A stretch of 64,000 bases of DNA from positions 483,283 through 547,282 of the forward strand of contig NZ_JANFDA010000001.1 of NCBI RefSeq assembly GCF_040493455.1, given 5' to 3'. Below the pieces are notes generated by a model, which saw nothing but the letters and a program-made list of their open reading frames with translations, made no database searches and was not told the DNA's origin. Source of the DNA: Winogradskyella sp. 3972H.M.0a.05 (GTDB lineage: Bacteria > Bacteroidota > Bacteroidia > Flavobacteriales > Flavobacteriaceae). The position numbers and the translations under genes are program-made. Of the stretch, positions 20,578 through 32,549 are shown piece by piece (the first letter of the stretch is position 1; the number at the start of each line of letters is the position of its first letter).

Positions 20578-20928
20578 TTATGTTTCACGTTTTACAAGGG
20601 CATAATAATCGCCATCTAGCGGTAAATATCCTTGATCGTATACGAAGTAATAAATAGCTCCTGCTTTTGTAGTGTAAATGCTTGTAAAATAATTGAAATC
20701 AAAGCCATGTTCTATGAGCTTGCTTCTGGAAACTTTCTTTTTCTGATTTGGATTGAGAACCTCCAGTATGCGGTAGTTTTTTCGTAAGCGATTATTAGTA
20801 TTTCTAATGAGATTTTTACTGTCTTTATTGATGCGATTATTGTGAGTGTTTCGACAACCATCGCTGCAAAACTTTTTATCTATTCTGCCAACAATCTTAG
20901 TACCACACTCAGGACATTTTTTTTCCAT
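20578..20928 (-). CDS. zinc-ribbon domain hypothetical protein
   Basis: CPECG...CSDGC four-Cys ribbon at the N-terminus. Confidence 0.55.
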   Translation of the reverse strand: MEKKCPECGTKIVGRIDKKFCSDGCRNTHNNRINKDSKNLIRNTNNRLRKNYRILEVLNPNQKKKVSRSKLIEHGFDFNYFTSIYTTKAGAIYYFVYDQGYLPLDGDYYALVKRET

Positions 20929-24028: not shown

Positions 24029-24142
24029 ATTCTCGATTTTTAATCAAAAATACTGAATAAATGATAAAAATTATCTGGTCTTCCGCTATTTAGAATGACT
24101 TCTAATATGTGTTTATTATTTTTATATAAAAGCACAATAACA

Positions 24143-26728
24143 ATGTCGGTACAGCCAAAATTAGTAAGGTTCAATGAAAATGTTCTAGCGAAGTATCAGA
24201 TCTACAATAGCATCTTTATGACATTACCATTTTATGCTATTACAAAGACAGGCGTGTTGCTTCCATTGTTTCATGAAACATGTGAAAAAGGATTTGCAAG
24301 AGGTGATGATCCAACAACTATTGTTCAGACTTTTTTTGAAAAATATCAGGGAAGGCGAGATAAAGAGAGTCAAATAAAACTACTGTTCAGGTTTATACAA
24401 TACATCGAACGACAAGTCGTATTGTTTGATGCCATCGAAGACGCTGCATTTCCTGTTGTAAATAATATGGATGGTATTGGTACACTGAGAAACCTGAAAG
24501 AGAATGCCACCTCAGAGGGTAAATTAAATACCTTAATAAAATACCTCAATGAGTTTAAAGTAAGAATTGTGCTTACAGCACATCCAACCCAGTTTTATCC
24601 AGGCTCAGTGTTGGGTATTATAACAGACCTCACAGAAGCCATTAGGAAAAATGATCTTTTACTTATCAATGATCTTCTGGCTCAGCTTGGAAAAACACCG
24701 TTTTTCAAAAAGAAAAAACCAACGCCTTACGATGAAGCCATAAGTTTAATTTGGTACTTGGAACATGTGTTTTATAATTCCTTCGGAAAGATTTTCGATT
24801 ACATTCAACATAATATTTATGATGACATCGAGATGCCAAATGAAATTATCAATATAGGATTTTGGCCAGGAGGAGATAGAGATGGAAATCCTTTCGTAAC
24901 ACCAGACACAACCATTAAAGTTGCCTTGAAACTGAAGCAAGCTGTTTTAAGAAATTACTATAAAGACATTAGAAGACTAAAACGAAGGCTTACTTTCAGA
25001 GGTGTTGAAGAACATGTAATTGCTTTGGAGCAAAAACTCTATAATGCCAGCATTAGTCCAAATGCTAAAAGTGCAATTACCTTAGAAGAATTTACTTCTG
25101 TTCTAGAAAACATAAGATCCGTTGTTGTAGAGCAACATCAATCCCTGTATCTTAAAGACATTGATAGTGTAATTAATAAAACTAAACTCTTTGGGTTTAG
25201 GTTTGCTACCTTAGATATAAGACAAGATAGTAGAAAGCATGATGAGGTATTTCAGGATGTGGTAAAAACACTTCAAAAGAAAAAAACCAGAATATTTCCT
25301 GAGAATTTCACAAATCAAACACCAAAGCAACAAGTAAAAACACTTTCAAAAGTAAAAGGTAAGCTAGATATTAATTGGTTTAAAGACGAGTTCACTATCC
25401 GAACCTTAAAAACAATGCAAGCCATTAGAGAAATTCAAGAATCTAATGGAGAACAAGCAGCCAATCGTTACATTATAAGCAATAATCAAACAGCGGTAAA
25501 TGTAATGCAGCTTTATGCCATGTTAAAGCTTGTATCTTTTGAGGATGAAATGACTGTTGATATTGTTCCACTCTTTGAAACGGTACCAGACTTAGAAAAT
25601 GCAGCATCTGTAATGGAGGAGCTTTACTCTAATGTAGAATACCGTAAGCATCTGGAGCAAAGGGGAAATAAGCAAACCATAATGTTAGGGTTTAGTGATG
25701 GAACCAAAGATGGCGGATACCTTATGGCCAATTGGGCAATATTTAAAGCTAAGGAAGAACTCACCAAAGTGTCGAGAAAACATAAAATAGCTGTTGTATT
25801 TTTTGATGGCCGTGGTGGTCCACCAGCACGAGGCGGAGGCAAAACACATAACTTCTATGCATCACTTGGGCCAACGATTGAAGACAAAGAAGTACAACTC
25901 ACTATTCAAGGGCAAACGATTAGTTCAAACTTTGGAACCTTAGCGTCTTCTCAATACAATATGGAACAATTGATAAGTTCAGGTATTTTGAATCGATTGT
26001 CGGACACCAATCAAAAACTGTCCAGGTCAGATAAGTCCGTAATGAATAGTTTAGCGAAAATAAGTTATGAAACCTATACCAAGTTTAAGCAACACCCAAA
26101 TTTCTTGGGTTATTTAGAACGTATGAGTACCCTTAAGTACTATGCTAAAACCAATATTGGTAGTAGACCATCAAAACGAGGCACATCAAATGAGTTGGTG
26201 TTTTCAGACCTTAGAGCGATTCCTTTTGTGGGAAGCTGGAGTCAGTTAAAACAAAATGTTCCAGGGTTTTTTGGCGTAGGAACGGCTTTGGAATACTATG
26301 AAAAGAAAGGCGAGTTTAAAAAAGTAAAACAGCTTTATAAAAACTCAAGCTTTTTTAAAACACTAATCGAAAACAGTATGATGTCATTGAGCAAATCCTT
26401 TTTCGATCTCACCAAATACATGGCAGAAGATGGAGAGTTTGGTGGATTTTGGATGCTTATCTATGAAGAATACAAATTAAGCAAACAACTTATCCTTAAA
26501 CTAACAGGCTATAATGAACTCATGCAAGAAGAACCAGCAGGTAAAGCATCTATTGCTATAAGAGAATCTATTGTATTACCACTACTGACCATTCAACAAT
26601 TTGCATTAAAGAAAATCCAAGAACTTCAAAAACAAGAAAATATTGATGCAGAAGAGTTAGAAGTTTATGAAAAAATAGTGACTAGATCACTGTTTGGCAA
26701 CATTAATGCAAGTAGAAATTCGGCATAA
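24143..26728 (+). CDS. ppc: phosphoenolpyruvate carboxylase
   Basis: VLTAHPTQ and FDGRGGPPARGGG signature motifs. I moved the start to the internal ATG (MSVQPKL), because the 16 upstream residues do not look coding. Confidence 0.9.
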   Translation: MSVQPKLVRFNENVLAKYQIYNSIFMTLPFYAITKTGVLLPLFHETCEKGFARGDDPTTIVQTFFEKYQGRRDKESQIKLLFRFIQYIERQVVLFDAIEDAAFPVVNNMDGIGTLRNLKENATSEGKLNTLIKYLNEFKVRIVLTAHPTQFYPGSVLGIITDLTEAIRKNDLLLINDLLAQLGKTPFFKKKKPTPYDEAISLIWYLEHVFYNSFGKIFDYIQHNIYDDIEMPNEIINIGFWPGGDRDGNPFVTPDTTIKVALKLKQAVLRNYYKDIRRLKRRLTFRGVEEHVIALEQKLYNASISPNAKSAITLEEFTSVLENIRSVVVEQHQSLYLKDIDSVINKTKLFGFRFATLDIRQDSRKHDEVFQDVVKTLQKKKTRIFPENFTNQTPKQQVKTLSKVKGKLDINWFKDEFTIRTLKTMQAIREIQESNGEQAANRYIISNNQTAVNVMQLYAMLKLVSFEDEMTVDIVPLFETVPDLENAASVMEELYSNVEYRKHLEQRGNKQTIMLGFSDGTKDGGYLMANWAIFKAKEELTKVSRKHKIAVVFFDGRGGPPARGGGKTHNFYASLGPTIEDKEVQLTIQGQTISSNFGTLASSQYNMEQLISSGILNRLSDTNQKLSRSDKSVMNSLAKISYETYTKFKQHPNFLGYLERMSTLKYYAKTNIGSRPSKRGTSNELVFSDLRAIPFVGSWSQLKQNVPGFFGVGTALEYYEKKGEFKKVKQLYKNSSFFKTLIENSMMSLSKSFFDLTKYMAEDGEFGGFWMLIYEEYKLSKQLILKLTGYNELMQEEPAGKASIAIRESIVLPLLTIQQFALKKIQELQKQENIDAEELEVYEKIVTRSLFGNINASRNSA

Positions 26729-27436: not shown

Positions 27437-27509
27437 TGACGTATAGCTTAGTCGGTAGAGCAGGGTGCTTTTAACACCAAGGTCGTGAGTTCGAATCTCG
27501 CTGCGTCAA
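27437..27509 (+). tRNA. tRNA-Lys (anticodon TTT)
   Basis: Manual cloverleaf: acceptor tgacgta/tgcgtca (U1:A72), D-arm gctt-agtcggtag-agc, anticodon loop cttttaa, T-arm cgtgagttcgaatctcgc. Confidence 0.8.
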
Positions 27510-27515
27510 CAAATT

Positions 27516-27588
27516 GGGGATATAGTTTACCAAGCCAAAACAGTGGGTTTGCAACTCGCAGTACGGAGTGTAAGTCTCCGTGTCTCCA
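27516..27588 (+). tRNA. degenerate tRNA-like gene (anticodon-position TGC, Ala-like); probable pseudogene
   Basis: Cloverleaf can be drawn (acceptor ggggata/tgtctcc, loop tttgcaa). The D-loop lacks GG, the T-loop is tgtaagt, and the anticodon stem has two G-U pairs. Confidence 0.4.
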
Positions 27589-27593
27589 CAAAA

Positions 27594-27665
27594 GATATTG
27601 TAGCTCAATGGTAGAGCAGGCGGCTGTTAACCGCCAGGTTGAAAGTTCGAGTCTTTCCAATATCG
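27594..27665 (+). tRNA. tRNA-Asn (GTT)
   Basis: Acceptor gatattg/caatatc, anticodon arm ggcgg-ctgttaa-ccgcc, T-arm ggttgaaagttcgagtcttt. Confidence 0.85.
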
Positions 27666-27668
27666 CTA

Positions 27669-27742
27669 GACAAGGTGGCTGAATGGTTAAAGCGGCAGTC
27701 TGCAAAACTGTTTTTTTATGAGTTCAAATCTCATCCTTGTCT
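27669..27742 (+). tRNA. tRNA-Cys (GCA)
   Basis: Acceptor gacaagg/ccttgtc, loop ctgcaaa, T-arm atgagttcaaatctcat. Unusual T6 run in the variable region. Confidence 0.75.
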
Positions 27743-27754
27743 CAAAAAAAATTA

Positions 27755-27897
27755 GGGAATGCGTCCAAGTTGGAGAGTGGAGCCAGTCTGACTAGAGCTT
27801 GCGACTGAGCGAAACCGATTTAAAACAATAGAAATGATTGAGTTAAAAACTGGTGCTTCGGTTGAATAGGTTCGAAATGCAGAGCATTCATGAGCAC
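27755..27897 (+). other. non-canonical tRNA-like gene A: type-II-like 5' part with an approximately 55-nt anticodon-loop insertion and the derived 3' module
   Basis: Acceptor-like gggaatg; D-stem tcc/gga with a 12-nt GG-containing loop. Anticodon stem ccagt (27783) pairs with actgg (27849) across 62 nt. The 3' end is aggttcgaaatgcagagcattcatgagcac. Confidence 0.4.
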
Positions 27898-27949
27898 AGC
27901 GATTCAAAAACTAAAATCAAGCGAACTAATCCTATGATTCCCACAACAA

Positions 27950-28021
27950 GCATCTATAGTGTAATTGGCAACATAGTAGATTTCCAATCTACAGTTTCGA
28001 GTTCGAGTCTCGGTAGGTGCT
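27950..28021 (+). tRNA. tRNA-Gly (TCC)
   Basis: Acceptor gcatcta/taggtgc, loop tttccaa, T-arm tcgagttcgagtctcgg. Confidence 0.85.
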
Positions 28022-28031
28022 CATAATACAC

Positions 28032-28103
28032 GCGCTTATGGTGTAATGGCTAGCATCTGAGTCTCCAAAACTTAGGGTTGAGGTTCAAGTCCTTATGGGC
28101 GCG
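28032..28103 (+). tRNA. tRNA-Trp (CCA)
   Basis: Acceptor gcgctta/tgggcgc, D-arm gtgt-aatggcta-gcat, loop ctccaaa, T-arm tgaggttcaagtcctta. Confidence 0.85.
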
Positions 28104-28110
28104 CAAATTA

Positions 28111-28240
28111 TATCTATGGTGTAATTGGATAGCACAAGAGATTTAGCTCACAGACTAATTATTATAAAATGTGGAGTTCCTGAATGCTTCGCATTTCTAA
28201 TCTCTAAGTCCGAGTTCGAAATGCTTTGCATTCATGAGTT
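28111..28240 (+). other. non-canonical tRNA-like gene B: tRNA 5' part with a 52-nt anticodon-loop insertion (possible mature loop tttctaa, Arg-TCT) and the derived 3' module
   Basis: D-arm gtgt-aattggata-gcac as in Trp/Gln. Anticodon stem agaga (28137) pairs with tctct (28201) across 59 nt. The 3' end is gagttcgaaatgctttgcattcatgagttc. Confidence 0.4.
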
Positions 28241-28292
28241 CTTATTTATCAAAATAATAATATGACGAACTAACCTTGGTAGATATACATCT

Positions 28293-28364
28293 GGTTCATT
28301 GGGGTAATGGATATCCTTCCCGACTGTCTCTCGGGAGATACGAGTTCGATTCTCGTATGAACCG
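28293..28364 (+). tRNA. tRNA-Asp (GTC)
   Basis: Acceptor ggttcat/atgaacc, loop ctgtctc, T-arm acgagttcgattctcgt. Confidence 0.85.
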
Positions 28365-28369
28365 CAACT

Positions 28370-28451
28370 GTGCTCTGTTACCATAAGATATGGTGCTGGG
28401 TTCTAAAAAGGGAAGTATAAGGGGCCATTTTCTTTACAGAGCACATTTTTT
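28370..28451 (+). terminator. terminator-like structured element: perfect 9-bp stem enclosing a 57-nt substructured loop, followed by a T6 run
   Basis: gtgctctgt...acagagcac then attttttaag. An internal hairpin ccata-aga-tatgg is present. Confidence 0.45.
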
Positions 28452-28466
28452 AAGAGATTATTCAAT

Positions 28467-28548
28467 GGAAGGGCAATTGGTGGTGGCCACAGTCTTGAAA
28501 ACTGTTCGGAGCTAACGACTCGTGTGGGTTCAACTCCCACCTCTTCCG
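28467..28548 (+). tRNA. tRNA-Ser (TGA), class II with variable arm
   Basis: Acceptor ggaaggg/ctcttcc, anticodon arm acagt-cttgaaa-actgt, variable arm about 18 nt, T-arm gtgggttcaactcccac. The D-arm is poorly defined. Confidence 0.65.
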
Positions 28549-28801
28549 CTACATGGAGGGTAGGCAAATACTGGTTCGTTGCGCTCGTTTGCTAAACAAG
28601 TCCGTGAGAAATCCGGTGAAGGTTCAAATGCGAAGCATTCACGAATACCTATTTATTGAATAAGTATTTAATGAGTAACTCCTTTATCCTCCGCAAATCT
28701 GGGAATAGAACAATTGGCTGTTTACTCGCTTTGGATGCGAGAGGTTGTAGAGCCTGTGCCGAACTAGATTCGGTATTCGAGTCCTACTTCTCAGACGAAA
28801 T

Positions 28802-28928
28802 GCTCCATTAGCATAGTGGTTTAGTGCATTCGGCTTTAACTCACTGACGCATATTTAGGAAATTGGTTTCGTTGAATTCGCAAACTCATTTCTACCGAAA
28901 GACAAGGGTTCGATTCCCTTATGGAGTA
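28802..28928 (+). tRNA. tRNA-like gene with a 54-nt insertion in the anticodon loop (mature loop could be ctttcta for Glu-TTC, or ctttaa-a for anticodon TTA)
   Basis: Acceptor gctccat/atggagt, D-arm gca-tagtggtttag-tgc. Anticodon stem ttcgg (28829) pairs with ccgaa (28895) across 61 nt. Normal T-arm aagggttcgattccctt. Confidence 0.5.
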
Positions 28929-28935
28929 CAAATTT

Positions 28936-29007
28936 TGAGGCATAGCTCAGTGGTAGAGCGTCACGCTTACATCGTGATTGTCATAGGTTCGATCCCTATT
29001 GCCTCAA
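28936..29007 (+). tRNA. tRNA-Val (TAC)
   Basis: Acceptor tgaggca/tgcctca (U1:A72), D-arm gctc-agtggtag-agcg, loop cttacat, T-arm ataggttcgatccctat. Confidence 0.85.
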
Positions 29008-29012
29008 CATAA

Positions 29013-29085
29013 TGAGATATAGCTTAACTGGTAGAGCGCCGCTCTGATAAGGTGGTAGGTTTAGGTTCAACTCCTAATATCTCAA
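29013..29085 (+). tRNA. tRNA-Ile (GAT)
   Basis: Acceptor tgagata/tatctca, loop ctgataa, T-arm ttaggttcaactcctaa. Confidence 0.85.
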
Positions 29086-29095
29086 CTAATAATAA

Positions 29096-29168
29096 TGAGA
29101 TGTAGCTTAATTGGTAGAGCATCGCTCTCATAAGGCGAAACGTCTAGGTTCGAGTCCTAGCATCTCAA
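29096..29168 (+). tRNA. tRNA with CAT anticodon (elongator Met or lysidine-Ile2; not initiator-like)
   Basis: Acceptor tgagatg/catctca, loop ctcataa. The anticodon stem lacks the 3 G-C pairs of an initiator. The body closely resembles the adjacent tRNA-Ile. Confidence 0.8.
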
Positions 29169-29174
29169 CAATTT

Positions 29175-29249
29175 ACAGGAATGGCGAAAATGGCAAACGC
29201 ACTCGACTTAGACTCGAGGTATCTGAGAGTTCGAATCTCTCTTCCTGTA
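29175..29249 (+). tRNA. class-I-shaped tRNA with Leu anticodon TAG (no long variable arm)
   Basis: Acceptor acaggaa/ttcctgt, D-arm gcg-aaaatggcaaa-cgc, perfect anticodon arm ctcga-cttagac-tcgag. Only 6 nt lie between the anticodon stem and the T-arm gagagttcgaatctctc. A73 is present. Confidence 0.6.
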
Positions 29250-29253
29250 CTAT

Positions 29254-29327
29254 GCTCCACTAGCCCAAATGGCAGAGGCATCAGTCTTAAACACTGAGTA
29301 GTCCAAGTTCGAATCTTGGGTGGAGTT
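29254..29327 (+). tRNA. class-I-shaped tRNA with Leu anticodon TAA (no long variable arm; U73)
   Basis: Acceptor gctccac/gtggagt, anticodon arm tcagt-cttaaac-actga, 5-nt variable loop, T-arm ccaagttcgaatcttgg. Confidence 0.6.
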
Positions 29328-29333
29328 CAACAA

Positions 29334-29410
29334 GCTCATGGTGTAATGGATAGCATTCAAGGCTACGGACTTTGAGGTATGGGTTCGAAATGCAAAGCAT
29401 TCACGAGCTC
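29334..29410 (+). other. non-canonical tRNA-like gene D: tRNA-Arg(ACG)-like body whose T-arm is replaced by the derived 3' module
   Basis: Acceptor gctcatg pairs with cacgagc. D-arm gtgt-aatggata-gcat, anticodon arm caagg-ctacgga-ctttg, then aggtatgggttcgaaatgcaaagcattcacgagctc. Confidence 0.45.
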
Positions 29411-29459
29411 AAATTTATCAAAATGATTATGAGGCGAGCTAGTCCTATTGAGCTTACAA

Positions 29460-29531
29460 TAACCTGTAGTGTAATGGTTAGCATTCAAGACTTTGACTCT
29501 TGAGGTAAAGGTTCAAATCCTTTCAGGTTAT
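29460..29531 (+). tRNA. tRNA-Gln (TTG)
   Basis: Acceptor taacctg/caggtta, D-arm gtgt-aatggtta-gcat, loop ctttgac, T-arm aaaggttcaaatccttt. Confidence 0.85.
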
Positions 29532-29533
29532 CT

Positions 29534-29606
29534 GGTGTCTATAGTGTAACGGCTCGCACGAGAGATTGTGGTACTCTAAGATTAGGTTCGACTCCTAATA
29601 GACACC
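29534..29606 (+). tRNA. tRNA-His (GTG) with encoded G-1 paired to C73
   Basis: G-1 then gtgtcta pairs with tagacac then C73. Loop ttgtggt, T-arm ttaggttcgactcctaa. Confidence 0.8.
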
Positions 29607-29612
29607 CAAAAT

Positions 29613-29685
29613 GGAGCAGTAGCAAAGTTGGTCAATGCAGCAGATTGAAGTTCTGACGATATAGGTTCGATTCCTGTCTGTTCCA
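29613..29685 (+). tRNA. tRNA-Phe (GAA)
   Basis: Acceptor ggagcag/ctgttcc, loop ttgaagt, T-arm ataggttcgattcctgt, A73. Confidence 0.8.
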
Positions 29686-29689
29686 CAAA

Positions 29690-30256
29690 TTTTCATGAAT
29701 TTTTAATTACGCAAAATCATTGCGTAATAGAAATTCACCTTTGTATCAACATTTACCGATAAAGGTAGAATTACGTTCATTGAAATTAAATGAAGTCAAA
29801 GTACTTCATTATAGAAAGAAATCGTCATTAGAAATAATGACGGGGCGGCTTATCGTCCTTAGATAAACTTGGCAACAAGGATAAATCTGCTTGCAGGCAC
29901 TGCGAGTGGAGACTGTTTTCTCTAGAGATCAGTACAGGTAAGCAAGCAACTAACATAAATCATAAAAAGCTAGGGGCAACCGCTGAAGCAAATTAGGATT
30001 TATAGCCAATATTTTTGGAGGCTTGAGGTGGAGACACCAACAGGAAAAGTTGTAGTAATAGGTTACGTATAGGTCATCCAACCTTATGGAGCGTGTTGCA
30101 GTATTAGAGGTACCCGACAAGAAATTGTTCGGTAGCTCAACATACCGTGTGCTGGGAGGCACACAAAGAGAAGGTTGGTATTTTGTAGGCCAAAATCTAC
30201 GGAGCCATTTCCGAAGCCCTTCTCTTAGGCCAGACGATAGTCTATCTCCAACAAAA
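29690..30256 (+). ncRNA. ORF-free structured RNA candidate (hairpin-dense, locally GC-enriched); identity unknown
   Basis: No ORF above about 115 aa and none with a plausible start or composition. Multiple perfect hairpins (ttacgcaa-aatc-attgcgtaa; cgtcatta-gaaa-taatgacg with a GNRA loop; gtag-gccaaaat-ctac; ccgacaag-aaatt-gttcgg). GC is well above the flanking sequence. Confidence 0.35.
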
Positions 30257-30831
30257 TGGGGATATAGCTCAAGTTTAGAGCATTGTATTTTTAACACAAA
30301 GGTTGACTTTATATCTTAAATGCAAAAGACTTCGGACATTACAGCAGCTAGTAGTTGCCTAAACCTATTGAAACATATAGGATGGTAGAGGTCGCAAACC
30401 TATACCATGTGGTGAACATTCTAGTAGGCCGCCTCAAGAGAGGACGCCTATGAATGGTGGGGGAGCCAACCCTCGTAATTGCAAAGCGTGGCCGTAGAGC
30501 CTCTATGCAAGCCAAGTCTAAGTCGCCGAACAGCTGTAATGTAATTAGGCATCGGACAAGTACGTGATTCCCTAAGCGATGGGAAGAGCGTGGAAAACCA
30601 AGGAAGGGCTACGGCTATAATCTTGGGAAAGTTTGTCTACAAGCGGAGGTATTCTCAGCACGCTTTTTTTAAAAATATCAAGCTGGTCTTGTTGCGTGTT
30701 TCTGTATAGCACCATTGTATAGAAGATTGCAGGGATGTATTATGCTTCTATATGCAACTAGACTTGAAGGTTTGGGTTTATCCAAAAAACTCCACCAAAG
30801 TTCAGTGTGGGTTCGAATCCCACTATCTCTA
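30257..30831 (+). other. split tRNA-like gene: intact 5' half (acceptor, D-arm, anticodon arm with loop tttttaa) separated by about 500 nt of structured sequence from a T-arm plus acceptor 3' half; either an intron-containing tRNA or two pseudogene fragments
   Basis: 5' half ggggatatagctcaagtttagagcattgtatttttaacacaa at 30257-30299. 3' half gtgggttcgaatcccac-tatctct-a at 30807-30831. The acceptor halves pair with 2 G-U. The intervening sequence is ORF-free and hairpin-rich, with an internal T7 run at about 30675. Confidence 0.35.
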
Positions 30832-30833
30832 AC

Positions 30834-30941
30834 GGGATATGGCGGAATGGTAGACGCACTAGATTTGAGGTCTAGCGGACAGATGACATTCTCAAAAAAT
30901 GTCTCTTTTAATGTTGCCGGTTCGACTCCGGTCATAAGCTC
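30834..30941 (+). other. degenerate Ser-like (TGA) tRNA-like sequence with an approximately 42-nt variable region
   Basis: D-arm gcg-gaatggtaga-cgc, perfect anticodon arm ctaga-tttgagg-tctag, T-arm ccggttcgactccgg. The acceptor pairs poorly. Confidence 0.35.
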
Positions 30942-30957
30942 GAGAGTAATCTCGCTG

Positions 30958-31025
30958 GCTTTTGTAACTCAATGGTAGAGTACTACGCTGTTAACGTAGC
31001 AGGTCATTATAGACCACTAAAGCCG
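30958..31025 (+). other. degenerate second Asn-like (GTT) tRNA-like sequence with an aberrant T-arm
   Basis: Acceptor ggctttt/taaagcc (6 bp), anticodon arm ctacg-ctgttaa-cgtag. T-arm reduced to ggtc-attata-gacc. Confidence 0.35.
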
Positions 31026-31451: not shown

Positions 31452-32549
31452 ATGAAACAAGTAAGAATTAATGCAGGAAAAGTTGGTTTGGTCTTCAAAA
31501 AAGGGGATTACCAAAAAGTATTGACGCAAGGTAAATACTGGTTAGGCTTTGGACAAGATGTTTATATCTATGACTTAGCCAAGACATTCCACGCTCCCAT
31601 AGCATTAGAGCTCTTAGTAAAGGATAAAACCTTAGAGGCTATGTTGGAGGTTGTTGAGGTAAAAGATAATGAACTGGTATTGGTGTTTGAAAACAACATT
31701 TTAAATACTGTATTATCTGCCGGAAGATATGTGTACTGGAAAGGTTTGGTAGAGCGCGAGTTTACAAGAGTAGACTTAAGCAAGATCGATATTACAGAAG
31801 ATATTGATAAAGCGTTATTCAGCAAGTATGAATTGAATAAGTACATCAGATCTTTTGAAGTCGCTACTCATGAAAAAGCAGTACTTATCATTGATGATGT
31901 GTACGAAAAAACACTTGGGCCAGGTATCTATCGTTTCTGGAGAAACGATACTTCAATTAAAATTGCAAAAGCAGATTTACGTCAATTACAATTAGAAATT
32001 GCAGGTCAGGAATTGTTGACTAAAGACAAGGCTGCTATTCGTATCAACTTTTACACTCAGTACAAAGTAACAGATATTGAAAAGGCACTTTTAGAGAACA
32101 AGGACTACGAAAAGCAATTGTACATTGGAATGCAATTAGTATTGCGTGCTTATGTAGGTACATATACTTTGGACGAACTTTTAGAACGTAAGGATAATAT
32201 TGCCGAGGCTGTATTAGAAGACGTAAAAGAGTTAGCTTCAAAGTTAGGTATCACAGTATTGAACACAGGTATTAGAGATGTAATCTTAACAGGTGAAATG
32301 AAAGACATCATGAACCAGGTACTTGTGGCTCAAAAGAAAGCCCAAGCTAATATCATTACTAGACGAGAAGAAACAGCTTCGACTCGTAGCTTGTTAAACA
32401 CAGCAAAGTTGATGGAAGAAAATGAAATGTTATACAAGTTGAAAGAGATGGAGTATGTTGAAAAAATTGCTGATAAGATTGGTGAAATTACAGTTTCTGG
32501 TCACGGAGGTGTAGTTGCACAATTGAAAGAGATTTTCTCTGGAAAATAA
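31452..32549 (+). CDS. SPFH/band-7 (stomatin/flotillin-like) domain protein with an unknown approximately 190-aa N-terminal domain; no TM helix
   Basis: The C-terminal approximately 170 aa is SPFH-like (AIRINFYTQYKV...NTGIRDVILTGEMKDIMNQVLVAQKKAQANII...). Confidence 0.65.
   Translation: MKQVRINAGKVGLVFKKGDYQKVLTQGKYWLGFGQDVYIYDLAKTFHAPIALELLVKDKTLEAMLEVVEVKDNELVLVFENNILNTVLSAGRYVYWKGLVEREFTRVDLSKIDITEDIDKALFSKYELNKYIRSFEVATHEKAVLIIDDVYEKTLGPGIYRFWRNDTSIKIAKADLRQLQLEIAGQELLTKDKAAIRINFYTQYKVTDIEKALLENKDYEKQLYIGMQLVLRAYVGTYTLDELLERKDNIAEAVLEDVKELASKLGITVLNTGIRDVILTGEMKDIMNQVLVAQKKAQANIITRREETASTRSLLNTAKLMEENEMLYKLKEMEYVEKIADKIGEITVSGHGGVVAQLKEIFSGK

What the first reader, a model, noticed from the sequence alone, without database searches (positions are those of the whole stretch)
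29175..29327. Two adjacent class-I-shaped tRNAs carrying leucine anticodons (TAG and TAA) without the long variable arm
Both fold as clean 74-75 nt cloverleaves with perfect anticodon stems and loops cttagac and cttaaac. They have only a 5-6 nt variable region. One of them has U73 instead of A73.

- Bacterial tRNA-Leu is invariably class II with a long variable arm, and A73 is its main identity element.
- So these are either Leu-decoding tRNAs charged with something else (identity-switched or chimeric tRNAs, as described in some tRNA arrays and in nematode nev-tRNAs), suppressor-like tRNAs, or non-functional.
- No class-II tRNA-Leu is present in the array.
Basis: seen in the sequence. Interest (0 to 1): 0.6.

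Follow-up and report, generated by a model that had tools for sequence, protein, structure and literature searches.

The report
Phage-type short-arm leucine tRNA genes
These are two real leucine-decoding tRNA genes that lack the usual long extra arm; they belong to a large family of such tRNAs seen mostly in phages and sit in a movable tRNA gene cluster of a marine flavobacterium, so they are unusual for a cell but not a new kind of molecule.

Summary
Window 29175-29249 and 29254-29327 (+) are clean cloverleaf tRNAs with anticodons UAG and UAA and 6- and 5-nt variable regions. The second has U73.

- Short-arm tRNA-Leu is annotated in many phage genomes (T5-like, FelixO1-like, KVP40-like, Streptomyces phages).
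- It occurs in at least 160 IMG/VR contigs.
- A native, leucylated example is published for Streptomyces coelicolor.

In the viral family, 106 of 108 unique sequences carry Leu anticodons and 105 of 108 have A73. The stems covary strongly. The D arm is the Leu-specific one, shared with class II tRNA-Leu and with no other isotype.

Four related arrays hold orthologues of at least one of the two genes, with compensatory stem changes. U73 is unique to this window; the three orthologues of the UAA gene have A73.

The genes lie in an accessory array of roughly 25-30 tRNA and tRNA-like genes, with a GOLLD RNA and a linked SPFH gene, in a Flavobacteriaceae chromosome.

Best reading: they are genuine LeuRS substrates that decode CUN and UUR codons. 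The U73 copy may be impaired. Identity switching or nonsense suppression is unlikely.

Separately, several neighbouring tRNA genes carry ~52-nt insertions in their loops. I found no description of these.

The parts
29175..29249 (+). tRNA-Leu(UAG), type I (6-nt variable region), A1-U72, A73, D arm UGGCGAAAAUGGCAAACGCA
   Evidence: ARAGORN. Rfam 58.8 bits. 84-85% identical to tRNA-Leu(tag) of Vibrio phage VspSw_1. Member of a viral sub-family of 33 unique sequences, all with A73. Orthologues in L208, L288, L292 and L280.
29254..29327 (+). tRNA-Leu(UAA), type I (5-nt variable region), G1.U72, U73 (derived), D arm UAGCCCAAAUGGCAGAGGCA
   Evidence: ARAGORN. Rfam 51.4 bits. Member of a viral sub-family of 108 unique sequences with strong covariation. 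Orthologues in L208, L288 and L292 all have A73.
27437..31024 (+). Accessory tRNA array that holds the two genes, all on one strand. It has 14 intact ARAGORN tRNAs plus Ala-like, Ser(UGA), Pro-like and tRNA-like elements, and five interrupted genes: Tyr 27755-27944, Arg(UCU) 28110-28287, Ser(GCU) 28555-28693, Glu 28802-28927 and Arg(ACG) 29332-29456.
   Evidence: Aligned to the intact homologous array of Winogradskyella sp. (L208).
30166..30664 (+). GOLLD-like large RNA inside the array, with an embedded tRNA-like 5' half at 30258-30317
   Evidence: Rfam RF02032: 130.4 bits, E = 4e-35, full model length, below the gathering score of 150. Absent from the L208 array.
31452..32549 (+). SPFH/Band 7 gene linked to the array, probably part of the same movable module
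   Evidence: Pfam PF01145. Its orthologues (57-89% identity) occur only in loci that carry such arrays, always just downstream of the array: L208, L254, L260, L266, L269, L280 and L288. The array plus this gene sit at a different position relative to neighbouring genes in the window and in L208.
24095..26728 (+). Phosphoenolpyruvate carboxylase gene, the chromosomal left flank (context only)
   Evidence: Pfam PF00311. 86% identical to Microcosmobacter mediterraneus and 81% to a Winogradskyella sp..

Best explanation
Both genes encode genuine leucine tRNAs of the short-variable-arm ('type I') kind that dominates among phage-encoded tRNA-Leu.

Context: they are part of a horizontally mobile tRNA array (with a GOLLD RNA and a linked SPFH gene) in the chromosome of a marine Flavobacteriaceae bacterium related to Microcosmobacter and Winogradskyella.

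Inferred mechanism:
1. The array is transcribed.
2. The tRNAs are cut out by RNase P and 3' processing enzymes.
3. CCA is added enzymatically, because it is not encoded.
4. The host leucyl-tRNA synthetase charges them. This enzyme does not read the anticodon. It recognises the discriminator base and the Leu-specific D-arm and tertiary core: U8-A14, A15-U48, G18G19 placement and a 3-bp D stem. All of these are retained.
5. With U34, the tRNAs read CUA/CUG (possibly all CUN) and UUA/UUG. They belong to a one-tRNA-per-codon-box, U34-rich set typical of phage-style arrays.

tRNA 1 has every family hallmark. tRNA 2 has a lineage-specific A73-to-U change, so it is either a weaker Leu acceptor or tolerated by this host's LeuRS.

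Shown here: gene structure, family membership, conservation and covariation, Leu-type body, accessory context. Inferred: transcription, processing, charging with leucine and use in translation.
For: - The genes are real tRNAs.
- 157 phage records match the pair by blastn, and 74-77-nt genes are annotated tRNA-Leu in unrelated phage groups.
- An IMG/VR pattern scan hit its 120-contig limit. Of 108 unique tRNAs, 106 carry Leu anticodons (UAA 41, UAG 29, CAA 27, CAG 4, GAG 3, AAG 2), 105 have A73 and 97 have a 5-nt variable region.
- The second sub-family has 41 contigs and 33 unique sequences, all with A73.
- Covariation on 52 sequences: 98.5% of cells paired; score 0.899 against 0.208 in shuffles and 0.11-0.16 when the partners are slid.
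- The Leu-specific D-arm motif is in 79% of short Leu and 68% of long Leu tRNAs, and in at most 1% of each other isotype, among 1638 tRNAs. The D region of tRNA 1 is closest to that of class II Leu.
- In the same viral loci, tRNA-Ser (84-98 nt) and most tRNA-Tyr keep their long arms. Some contigs carry complete short-arm Leu isoacceptor sets, for example L056.
- Orthologues in four related arrays differ by compensatory or wobble changes in the stems.
- Literature: type I tRNA-Leu(CAA) of S. coelicolor is leucylated and could not be deleted (PMC6614811). Deleting the variable arm of Aquifex tRNA-Leu mainly lowers affinity, and the variable stem-loop carries no identity element (PMC2377443).
Against: - There are no expression or charging data for these genes or for this host.
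- E. coli LeuRS failed to charge the Streptomyces type I tRNA-Leu in vitro, so acceptance of short-arm tRNA-Leu is not universal among bacterial LeuRS.
- tRNA 2 has U73, which is essentially absent from the family: 1 of 108, and that one has a broken acceptor stem.
- The window's array is littered with insertions in five other tRNA genes and contains odd tRNA-like members. It could therefore be decaying or serve a non-translational role.
- The promoter scan was uninformative, and Bacteroidota promoters are not covered by the tool.
Confidence: 0.75

Rival explanations
1. Non-functional relics. The array is an acquired, decaying island, and one or both Leu genes (especially the U73 copy) are silent or inactive pseudogenes.
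For: - U73 occurs only in the window copy, while the orthologues and 105 of 108 family members have A73.
- Five neighbouring tRNA genes are interrupted by 51-53-nt insertions.
- Neither the array nor its linked SPFH gene lies near ppc in 79 of 80 related genomes.
- No promoter was identified.
Against: - Every stem of both genes is intact.
- The window copies differ from their orthologues almost only by compensatory or wobble-preserving changes, which is not expected under neutral decay.
- Even the interrupted genes keep intact, covarying exons.
- A73 is dispensable for at least one bacterial LeuRS.
Confidence: 0.13
2. Non-translational role. The array tRNAs, including the short-arm Leu pair, act mainly as decoys or spare parts against tRNA-cleaving toxins or defence nucleases, or as cargo or partners of the GOLLD RNA cage, rather than as codon supplements.
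For: - A GOLLD RNA lies inside the array. GOLLD and ROOL are phage or prophage RNAs near tRNA islands and form cages that might hold tRNAs (PMC12286853).
- RtcB ligase and a PF04308 RNase H-like gene follow related arrays.
- Cyanobacterial long arrays are co-regulated with rtcB and are cleaved under stress (PMC8421152).
- The related arrays contain odd members, such as a His-like tRNA with anticodon AUA.
Against: - The near-perfect coupling of the Leu-type body, A73 and Leu anticodons is what selection for correct decoding predicts. A pure decoy would not need it.
- The complete isoacceptor sets in some phages also point to decoding.
Confidence: 0.08
3. Identity-switched or mischarging tRNAs. 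The tRNAs, or at least the U73 copy, are charged with an amino acid other than leucine and recode CUN or UUR codons, or they act as suppressors.
For: - Loss of the class II arm.
- In tRNA 2, loss of A73, the main E. coli Leu determinant, together with G1.U72.
Against: - The body is Leu-type, not that of another isotype.
- The known U73-dependent synthetases (GlyRS, CysRS; from my own knowledge) also need anticodon or acceptor elements that are absent here.
- Anticodons UAG and UAA read sense Leu codons, not stop codons.
- tRNA 1 has A73, as does the whole family.
- U73 is a single-lineage change.
Confidence: 0.04

Closest known systems
Short-arm tRNA-Leu genes of phages (T5-like Demerecviridae such as VspSw_1, My1 and DU_PP_V; Felixounavirus wV8; Schizotequatrovirus KVP40 group; Streptomyces phages such as Genie2; Pseudomonas phage PPSC2)
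   Same: Same length class (74-77 nt) and a 5-6-nt variable region. Same D arms (UAGCCCAAUUGGCAGAGGCA or UGGCGGAAUUGGCAUACGC). A73, frequent G1.U72, and Leu anticodons. Adjacent UAG and UAA genes occur in VspSw_1, which is 84-85% identical to tRNA 1.
   Different: The window genes lie in a bacterial chromosome, not a phage genome. They do not encode CCA. tRNA 2 has U73.
Type I tRNA-Leu(CAA) of Streptomyces coelicolor (Fan et al. 2019, PMC6614811)
   Same: A bacterial tRNA-Leu with a 5-nt variable loop that coexists with class II tRNA-Leu and a single LeuRS. It was shown to be leucylated, and U8-A14 is important. A73 is not required there, which is relevant to the U73 copy.
   Different: It is a native gene that the authors could not delete, not an array gene. 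Its anticodon is CAA. I did not test its sequence relationship to the phage family. Its charging depends on features of the Streptomyces LeuRS leucine-specific domain that are unknown for Flavobacteriaceae.
Horizontally transferred tRNA arrays with GOLLD RNA (mycobacterial '32-tRNA cluster', PMC6582537; long arrays of Anabaena, PMC8421152)
   Same: Dozens of same-strand tRNA genes, patchy distribution, GOLLD inside the array with an embedded pseudo-tRNA, and a link to RtcB.
   Different: Different phylum (Bacteroidota). Linked SPFH gene. No HNH endonuclease gene seen. Loop insertions in several tRNA genes.
Animal mitochondrial type I tRNA-Leu
   Same: Short variable arm and A73.
   Different: Unrelated lineage with a dedicated mitochondrial LeuRS and a relaxed core structure.
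Nematode nev-tRNAs and other identity-mismatched tRNAs
   Same: Only the superficial mismatch between the expected shape and the anticodon.
   Different: nev-tRNAs carry a long arm with Gly or Ile anticodons and are charged with Leu (my own knowledge). Here the body and the anticodon are both Leu-type, and only the arm is missing.

Membership tests
tRNA (Rfam RF00005) | Cloverleaf with 7-bp acceptor, D, anticodon and T stems, a 7-nt anticodon loop with U33, and a T loop UUCGAAU | tested here: met
   58.8 and 51.4 bits against a gathering score of 29, over the full model. ARAGORN agrees. All stems are paired.
Short-arm (type I) tRNA-Leu family of phages and arrays | Leu anticodon (NAG or YAA) | tested here: met
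   UAG and UAA. 106 of 108 and 33 of 33 family members carry Leu anticodons.
Short-arm (type I) tRNA-Leu family of phages and arrays | Variable region of 5-6 nt ending in U (partner of A15) | tested here: met
   GUAUCU and GUAGU. In the family, 97 of 108 have 5 nt and 11 have 6 nt, and the last base is U in at least 90%.
Short-arm (type I) tRNA-Leu family of phages and arrays | Leu-type D arm: U8, 3-bp D stem, A14 A15, and G18G19 in the loop AAnnGGYAGA | tested here: met
   Both genes match the motif. It is present in 79% of short Leu and 68% of long Leu tRNAs and at most 1% of other isotypes. The motif was defined after looking at Leu sequences, so it is descriptive.
Short-arm (type I) tRNA-Leu family of phages and arrays | Discriminator A73 | tested here: not met
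   Met by tRNA 1 (A73). Not met by tRNA 2 (U73). The family has A73 in 105 of 108 and 33 of 33 sequences, and the orthologues of tRNA 2 have A73.
Canonical bacterial class II tRNA-Leu | Long variable arm (more than 10 nt, stem-loop) | tested here: not met
   The variable regions are 6 and 5 nt. For comparison, a flavobacterial class II tRNA-Leu(UAA) of 86 nt is at L175 8517-8602.
Nonsense suppressor tRNA | Anticodon complementary to a stop codon (CUA, UUA or UCA) | tested here: not met
   Anticodons 5'-UAG-3' and 5'-UAA-3' pair with the codons CUA and UUA.
Identity-switched or chimeric tRNA | Body (D arm, acceptor, discriminator) of one isotype with the anticodon of another | tested here: not met
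   The D region of tRNA 1 is closest to class II Leu (mean similarity 0.64, against at most 0.50 for other isotypes). The D-arm motif is exclusive to Leu.
Leucine acceptor (substrate of LeuRS) | Aminoacylation with leucine by the host LeuRS | not testable with these tools
   Inferred only, from retained identity elements and from PMC6614811 and PMC2377443.
Horizontally acquired tRNA array with GOLLD | At least 20 closely spaced same-strand tRNA genes, patchy occurrence among relatives, GOLLD RNA inside | tested here: met
   The array spans 27437-31024. Only 1 of 80 related ppc neighbourhoods has it. The array plus SPFH module sits at a different position in L208. The GOLLD hit has E = 4e-35 but 130 bits, below the gathering score of 150.

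The most novel reading that the evidence does not exclude
The U73, G1.U72 tRNA-Leu(UAA) has left the LeuRS identity set. It is either charged by another enzyme or kept uncharged as a regulatory or decoy tRNA for UUA/UUG. More broadly, phages and arrays may have shed the tRNA-Leu long arm to escape a host nuclease or toxin that recognises class II tRNA-Leu. The short-arm pair would then be an immunity-evasion device rather than a codon supplement.
Probability: 0.07. Interest if true: 0.7.

Novelty: new member of a known kind. Interest (0 to 1): 0.33.

Why it matters
For annotation and for tRNA biology, the result corrects a textbook generalisation. Short-arm tRNA-Leu is not a curiosity of mitochondria and Streptomyces. 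It is the prevailing form of tRNA-Leu in the phage and array loci sampled here, while tRNA-Ser and tRNA-Tyr keep their long arms. This implies that many bacterial LeuRS enzymes accept armless substrates, and it raises the question of why only Leu lost the arm.

These two genes add a chromosomal, Bacteroidota example and a natural A73U variant. That variant could be used to test how strictly flavobacterial LeuRS needs A73.

The finding itself is not a new kind of molecule. The surrounding array is the more interesting object, with its GOLLD RNA, linked SPFH gene and ~52-nt loop insertions associated elsewhere with RtcB.

Tried and rejected
- An exact or near-exact pattern of tRNA 1 in IMG/VR gave 0 hits, so degenerate patterns were used instead.
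- A look-up of the SPFH protein by exact sequence found nothing on record. The source species is also not among the GTDB representatives; the best ppc match is 86%.
- Four literature searches for a description of phage short-arm tRNA-Leu found none in the open-access library. Only the Streptomyces paper addresses type I tRNA-Leu in bacteria.
- The eLife paper on phage tRNAs does not discuss it.
- No fetched viral contig shares the window's gene order beyond single tRNAs, so a direct phage donor was not identified.
- The sigma-70 promoter scan found fewer sites than shuffles and says nothing for Bacteroidota.
- I first read '1 of 80 relatives have the array' as absence from those genomes. This was corrected: it shows only absence from the ppc neighbourhood, because the array travels with the SPFH gene.
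- For the loop insertions I considered a generic genome-wide MITE and rejected it: there were no convincing hits in 1.5 Mb of flavobacterial DNA or elsewhere in the window.
- A group I intron was rejected because the insertions are about 52 nt and have no Rfam hit.

Full report
**Observation.** ARAGORN finds 14 tRNA genes in the window, all between 27437 and 29686 on the + strand. They include tRNA-Leu(tag) at 29175-29250 and tRNA-Leu(taa) at 29254-29328. Rfam's tRNA model matches both end to end, at 58.8 and 51.4 bits against a gathering score of 29. The sequence shows:
- tRNA 1: acceptor ACAGGAA/UUCCUGU, A73, D arm UGGCGAAAAUGGCAAACGCA, perfect anticodon stem, loop CUUAGAC, 6-nt variable region.
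- tRNA 2: acceptor GCUCCAC/GUGGAGU (G1.U72), U73, D arm UAGCCCAAAUGGCAGAGGCA, perfect anticodon stem, loop CUUAAAC, 5-nt variable region.

**A large family, mostly viral.** A blastn search of the pair against 50,697 phage records hit 157 records. tRNA 1 is 84-85% identical to a gene of the T5-like Vibrio phage VspSw_1. That phage has adjacent 77-nt tRNA-Leu(tag) and tRNA-Leu(taa) genes.

Genes of 74-77 nt annotated tRNA-Leu occur in several unrelated phages:
- Pectobacterium phage My1
- Escherichia phage wV8
- Streptomyces phage Genie2
- Pseudomonas phage PPSC2
- KVP40-like Vibrio phages

I then scanned IMG/VR with a pattern that fixes only the D arm of tRNA 2 and the class I spacing to the T loop. 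Among 108 unique tRNAs:
- 106 carry Leu anticodons: UAA 41, UAG 29, CAA 27, CAG 4, GAG 3, AAG 2.
- 105 have A73.
- The 1-72 pair is G-C in 48 and G.U in 46.
- 97 have a 5-nt variable region.

The analogous pattern for tRNA 1 gave 41 contigs and 33 unique sequences, all with A73.

On 52 sequences, 98.5% of cells form pairs in the cloverleaf. The covariation score is 0.899, against 0.208 in shuffles and 0.11-0.16 with slid partners. One caveat applies. The 50 viral sequences were drawn from the 94 that passed a filter for largely intact stems and a 5-nt variable region, and the window copy and its L208 orthologue make up the other two. The percentage paired is therefore somewhat inflated, but the covariation is not.

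**Leucine identity.** Among 1638 tRNAs called in the fetched phage and viral loci, I looked for a D-arm motif: U8, a 3-bp stem, then AAn(n)GGYAGA. It is present in 79% of short Leu and 68% of long (class II) Leu tRNAs, and in at most 1% of each of the 20 other isotype classes counted. The motif was defined post hoc. The D region of tRNA 1 is closest to class II Leu, for example UGGCGAAAUUGGUAGACGCG.

The family also keeps A14, A15 with a U at the last variable position, G18G19, and A73. These are the elements listed for E. coli and Aquifex LeuRS.

In the same loci, tRNA-Ser (84-98 nt) and most tRNA-Tyr keep their long arms. Some contigs carry five adjacent short-arm Leu genes with different anticodons. 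LeuRS does not read the anticodon, so this tight coupling of a Leu-type body with Leu anticodons is best explained by selection for correct decoding.

The published biochemistry fits. S. coelicolor LeuRS leucylates its native type I tRNA-Leu(CAA), and A73 is dispensable there. However, E. coli LeuRS did not charge that tRNA. Deleting the variable arm of Aquifex tRNA-Leu mainly lowers affinity.

**Orthologues and the U73 question.** The ppc protein places the source in Flavobacteriaceae: 86% identity to Microcosmobacter mediterraneus and 81% to a Winogradskyella sp.. Homologous arrays were found in a Winogradskyella MAG (L208) and in metagenomic contigs L288, L292 and L280.

- tRNA 1 orthologues all have A73. 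They differ by changes that preserve pairing: A1-U72 versus G1.U72, CUCGA/UCGAG versus CCUGA/UCAGG, and GGAA/UUCC versus GGGA/UCCC.
- tRNA 2 orthologues have anticodon stems UCAGU/ACUGA, ACAGU/ACUGU, AAGGA/UCCUU and AAGGU/ACCUU. All three have A73.

U73 is therefore a derived, window-specific substitution in an otherwise constrained gene.

**Context.** The array runs from 27437 to about 31024. It lies between ppc (24095-26728) and an SPFH/Band 7 gene (31452-32549).

The array contains:
- Intact tRNAs for Lys, Asn, Cys, Gly, Trp, Asp, Val, Ile, Met, Leu (two), Gln, His and Phe.
- An Ala-like gene and Ser(UGA).
- Five interrupted genes.
- A GOLLD-like RNA at 30166-30664 (E = 4e-35, 130 bits, below the gathering score) with an embedded tRNA-like half.

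This configuration is already described for mycobacterial arrays. GOLLD is described more generally as a phage or prophage RNA found near tRNA islands.

Orthologues of the SPFH gene occur only next to such arrays. The array plus SPFH block sits at different positions relative to neighbouring genes in the window and in L208. Of 80 related ppc neighbourhoods, only L208 has the array or the SPFH gene. The block is therefore accessory and mobile. I found no integrase or phage structural genes beside it, and no viral contig with the same gene order.

**Conclusion.**
- Best explanation (0.75): these are genuine short-arm tRNA-Leu genes of the phage type, probably charged by the host LeuRS, and they decode CUN and UUR. 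The U73 copy may be a poorer substrate.
- Rivals: non-functional relics (0.13), a mainly non-translational or decoy role linked to GOLLD or RNA repair (0.08), and identity switching (0.04).
- Suppression is excluded by the anticodons.
- Novelty: a new member of a known kind.

**Seen in passing.** Alignment to L208 shows that five window tRNA genes carry 51-53-nt insertions: Tyr, Arg(UCU), Ser(GCU), Glu and Arg(ACG).

- The T-loop insertions follow UUCRA. They share the form AAUGC-NNN-GCAUUC-AYGA ... YGARCUA.
- The Arg(UCU) anticodon-loop insertion is the same element in reverse orientation.
- A covariance model finds 5 copies in the window, all inside the array. It finds no convincing hit in 1.5 Mb of flavobacterial DNA and none in 61 viral loci. 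It finds 2-5 copies per array in metagenomic arrays and in many isotypes, including short-arm tRNA-Leu(UAG) in L280 and L292.
- Exons stay intact and covary.
- Related arrays are followed by a PF04308 RNase H-like gene and an RtcB ligase gene.

Whether these are spliced mini-introns or a hairpin-targeting DNA element is unresolved. I found no description of them.

Noticed in passing
window 27876-27928, 28220-28272, 28628-28678, 29389-29441 (T loops of Tyr, Arg-UCU, Ser-GCU, Arg-ACG); 28144-28195 (anticodon loop of Arg-UCU, reverse orientation); possibly related: 27791-27843 (Tyr anticodon loop) and 28838-28890 (Glu anticodon loop): A ~52-nt non-coding element interrupts tRNA genes at a fixed site, after UUCRA in the T loop or the equivalent site on the other strand in anticodon loops. 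It has a conserved 5' hairpin AAUGC-NNN-GCAUU and a conserved 3' end YGARCUA. It occurs only in tRNA arrays: 5 hits in the window, none convincing in 1.5 Mb of flavobacterial DNA, none in 61 viral loci, and 2-5 per array in metagenomic arrays, including inside short-arm tRNA-Leu(UAG) in L280 and L292. Exons remain intact and covary. It is either a spliced mini-intron or a hairpin-targeting mobile DNA element. I found no published description.
   Followed up: partly
L292 735-1229 and 1330-2724; homologues in L269, L255, L254, L249: A PF04308 RNase H-like (DUF458/YkuK-type) gene and an RtcB RNA ligase gene lie directly downstream of arrays that carry the loop insertions. More distant homologues occur in several viral tRNA arrays. 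Neither gene is in the 64-kb window (tblastn).
   Followed up: partly
window 30166-30664 (with 30258-30317 and about 30795-30829): A GOLLD-like RNA (130 bits, E = 4e-35, below the gathering score of 150) lies inside the array. It contains the 5' part of a tRNA-like sequence whose acceptor strand GGGGAUA can pair with UAUCUCU, which follows a T arm about 480 nt downstream. The homologous L208 array lacks GOLLD but keeps the downstream conserved segment.
   Followed up: partly
window 31452-32549 and orthologues in L208, L254, L260, L266, L269, L280, L288: A specific SPFH/Band 7 gene is always found just downstream of this type of tRNA array and nowhere else in the loci examined, so it appears to travel with the array. 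A TPR-like protein with a lysine-rich tail often lies upstream (L208, L266, L269).
   Followed up: partly
window 30834-30937 and L208 about 20484-20590: A class-II-shaped tRNA-like element has a Leu-type D arm (GGCGGAAUGGUAGACGC), a long variable region and a poor acceptor stem. Its 'anticodon' differs between the window (UGA) and L208 (UCG). It overlaps weak Y RNA-like (YrlA) hits of 26-29 bits.
   Followed up: no
window 29535-29606; L208 20170-20241; L292 about 535-632: The tRNA-His-like gene has anticodon GUG in the window. Its orthologues in L208 and L292 have AUA in the anticodon position (ARAGORN calls the L208 copy 'Tyr(ata)'). The L292 copy also carries an insertion in the D-loop region.
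   Followed up: no
window 28366-28466 and L208 19660-19745: A conserved ~95-nt hairpin RNA lies between tRNA-Asp and tRNA-Ser. Its long stem has compensatory changes (GUGCUCUG/CAGAGCAC versus GCGCUCUG/CAGAGCGC) and is followed by a U run. It is an unknown small RNA or a terminator inside the array.
   Followed up: no
window 27516-27588 and 28700-28797: Two tRNA genes were missed by ARAGORN. One is an Ala(UGC)-like gene with a G3.U70 pair (Rfam 43.9 bits). The other is a Pro(UGG)-like gene whose T arm is disrupted by a different, ~25-nt insertion.
   Followed up: no
L008-L168 (viral loci): In phage and viral tRNA clusters, the G1.U72 wobble pair is present in 43% of short-arm tRNA-Leu (46 of 108). 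The variable loop is nearly always NNAGU or NNGUU. The reason for the G1.U72 preference is unknown.
   Followed up: no
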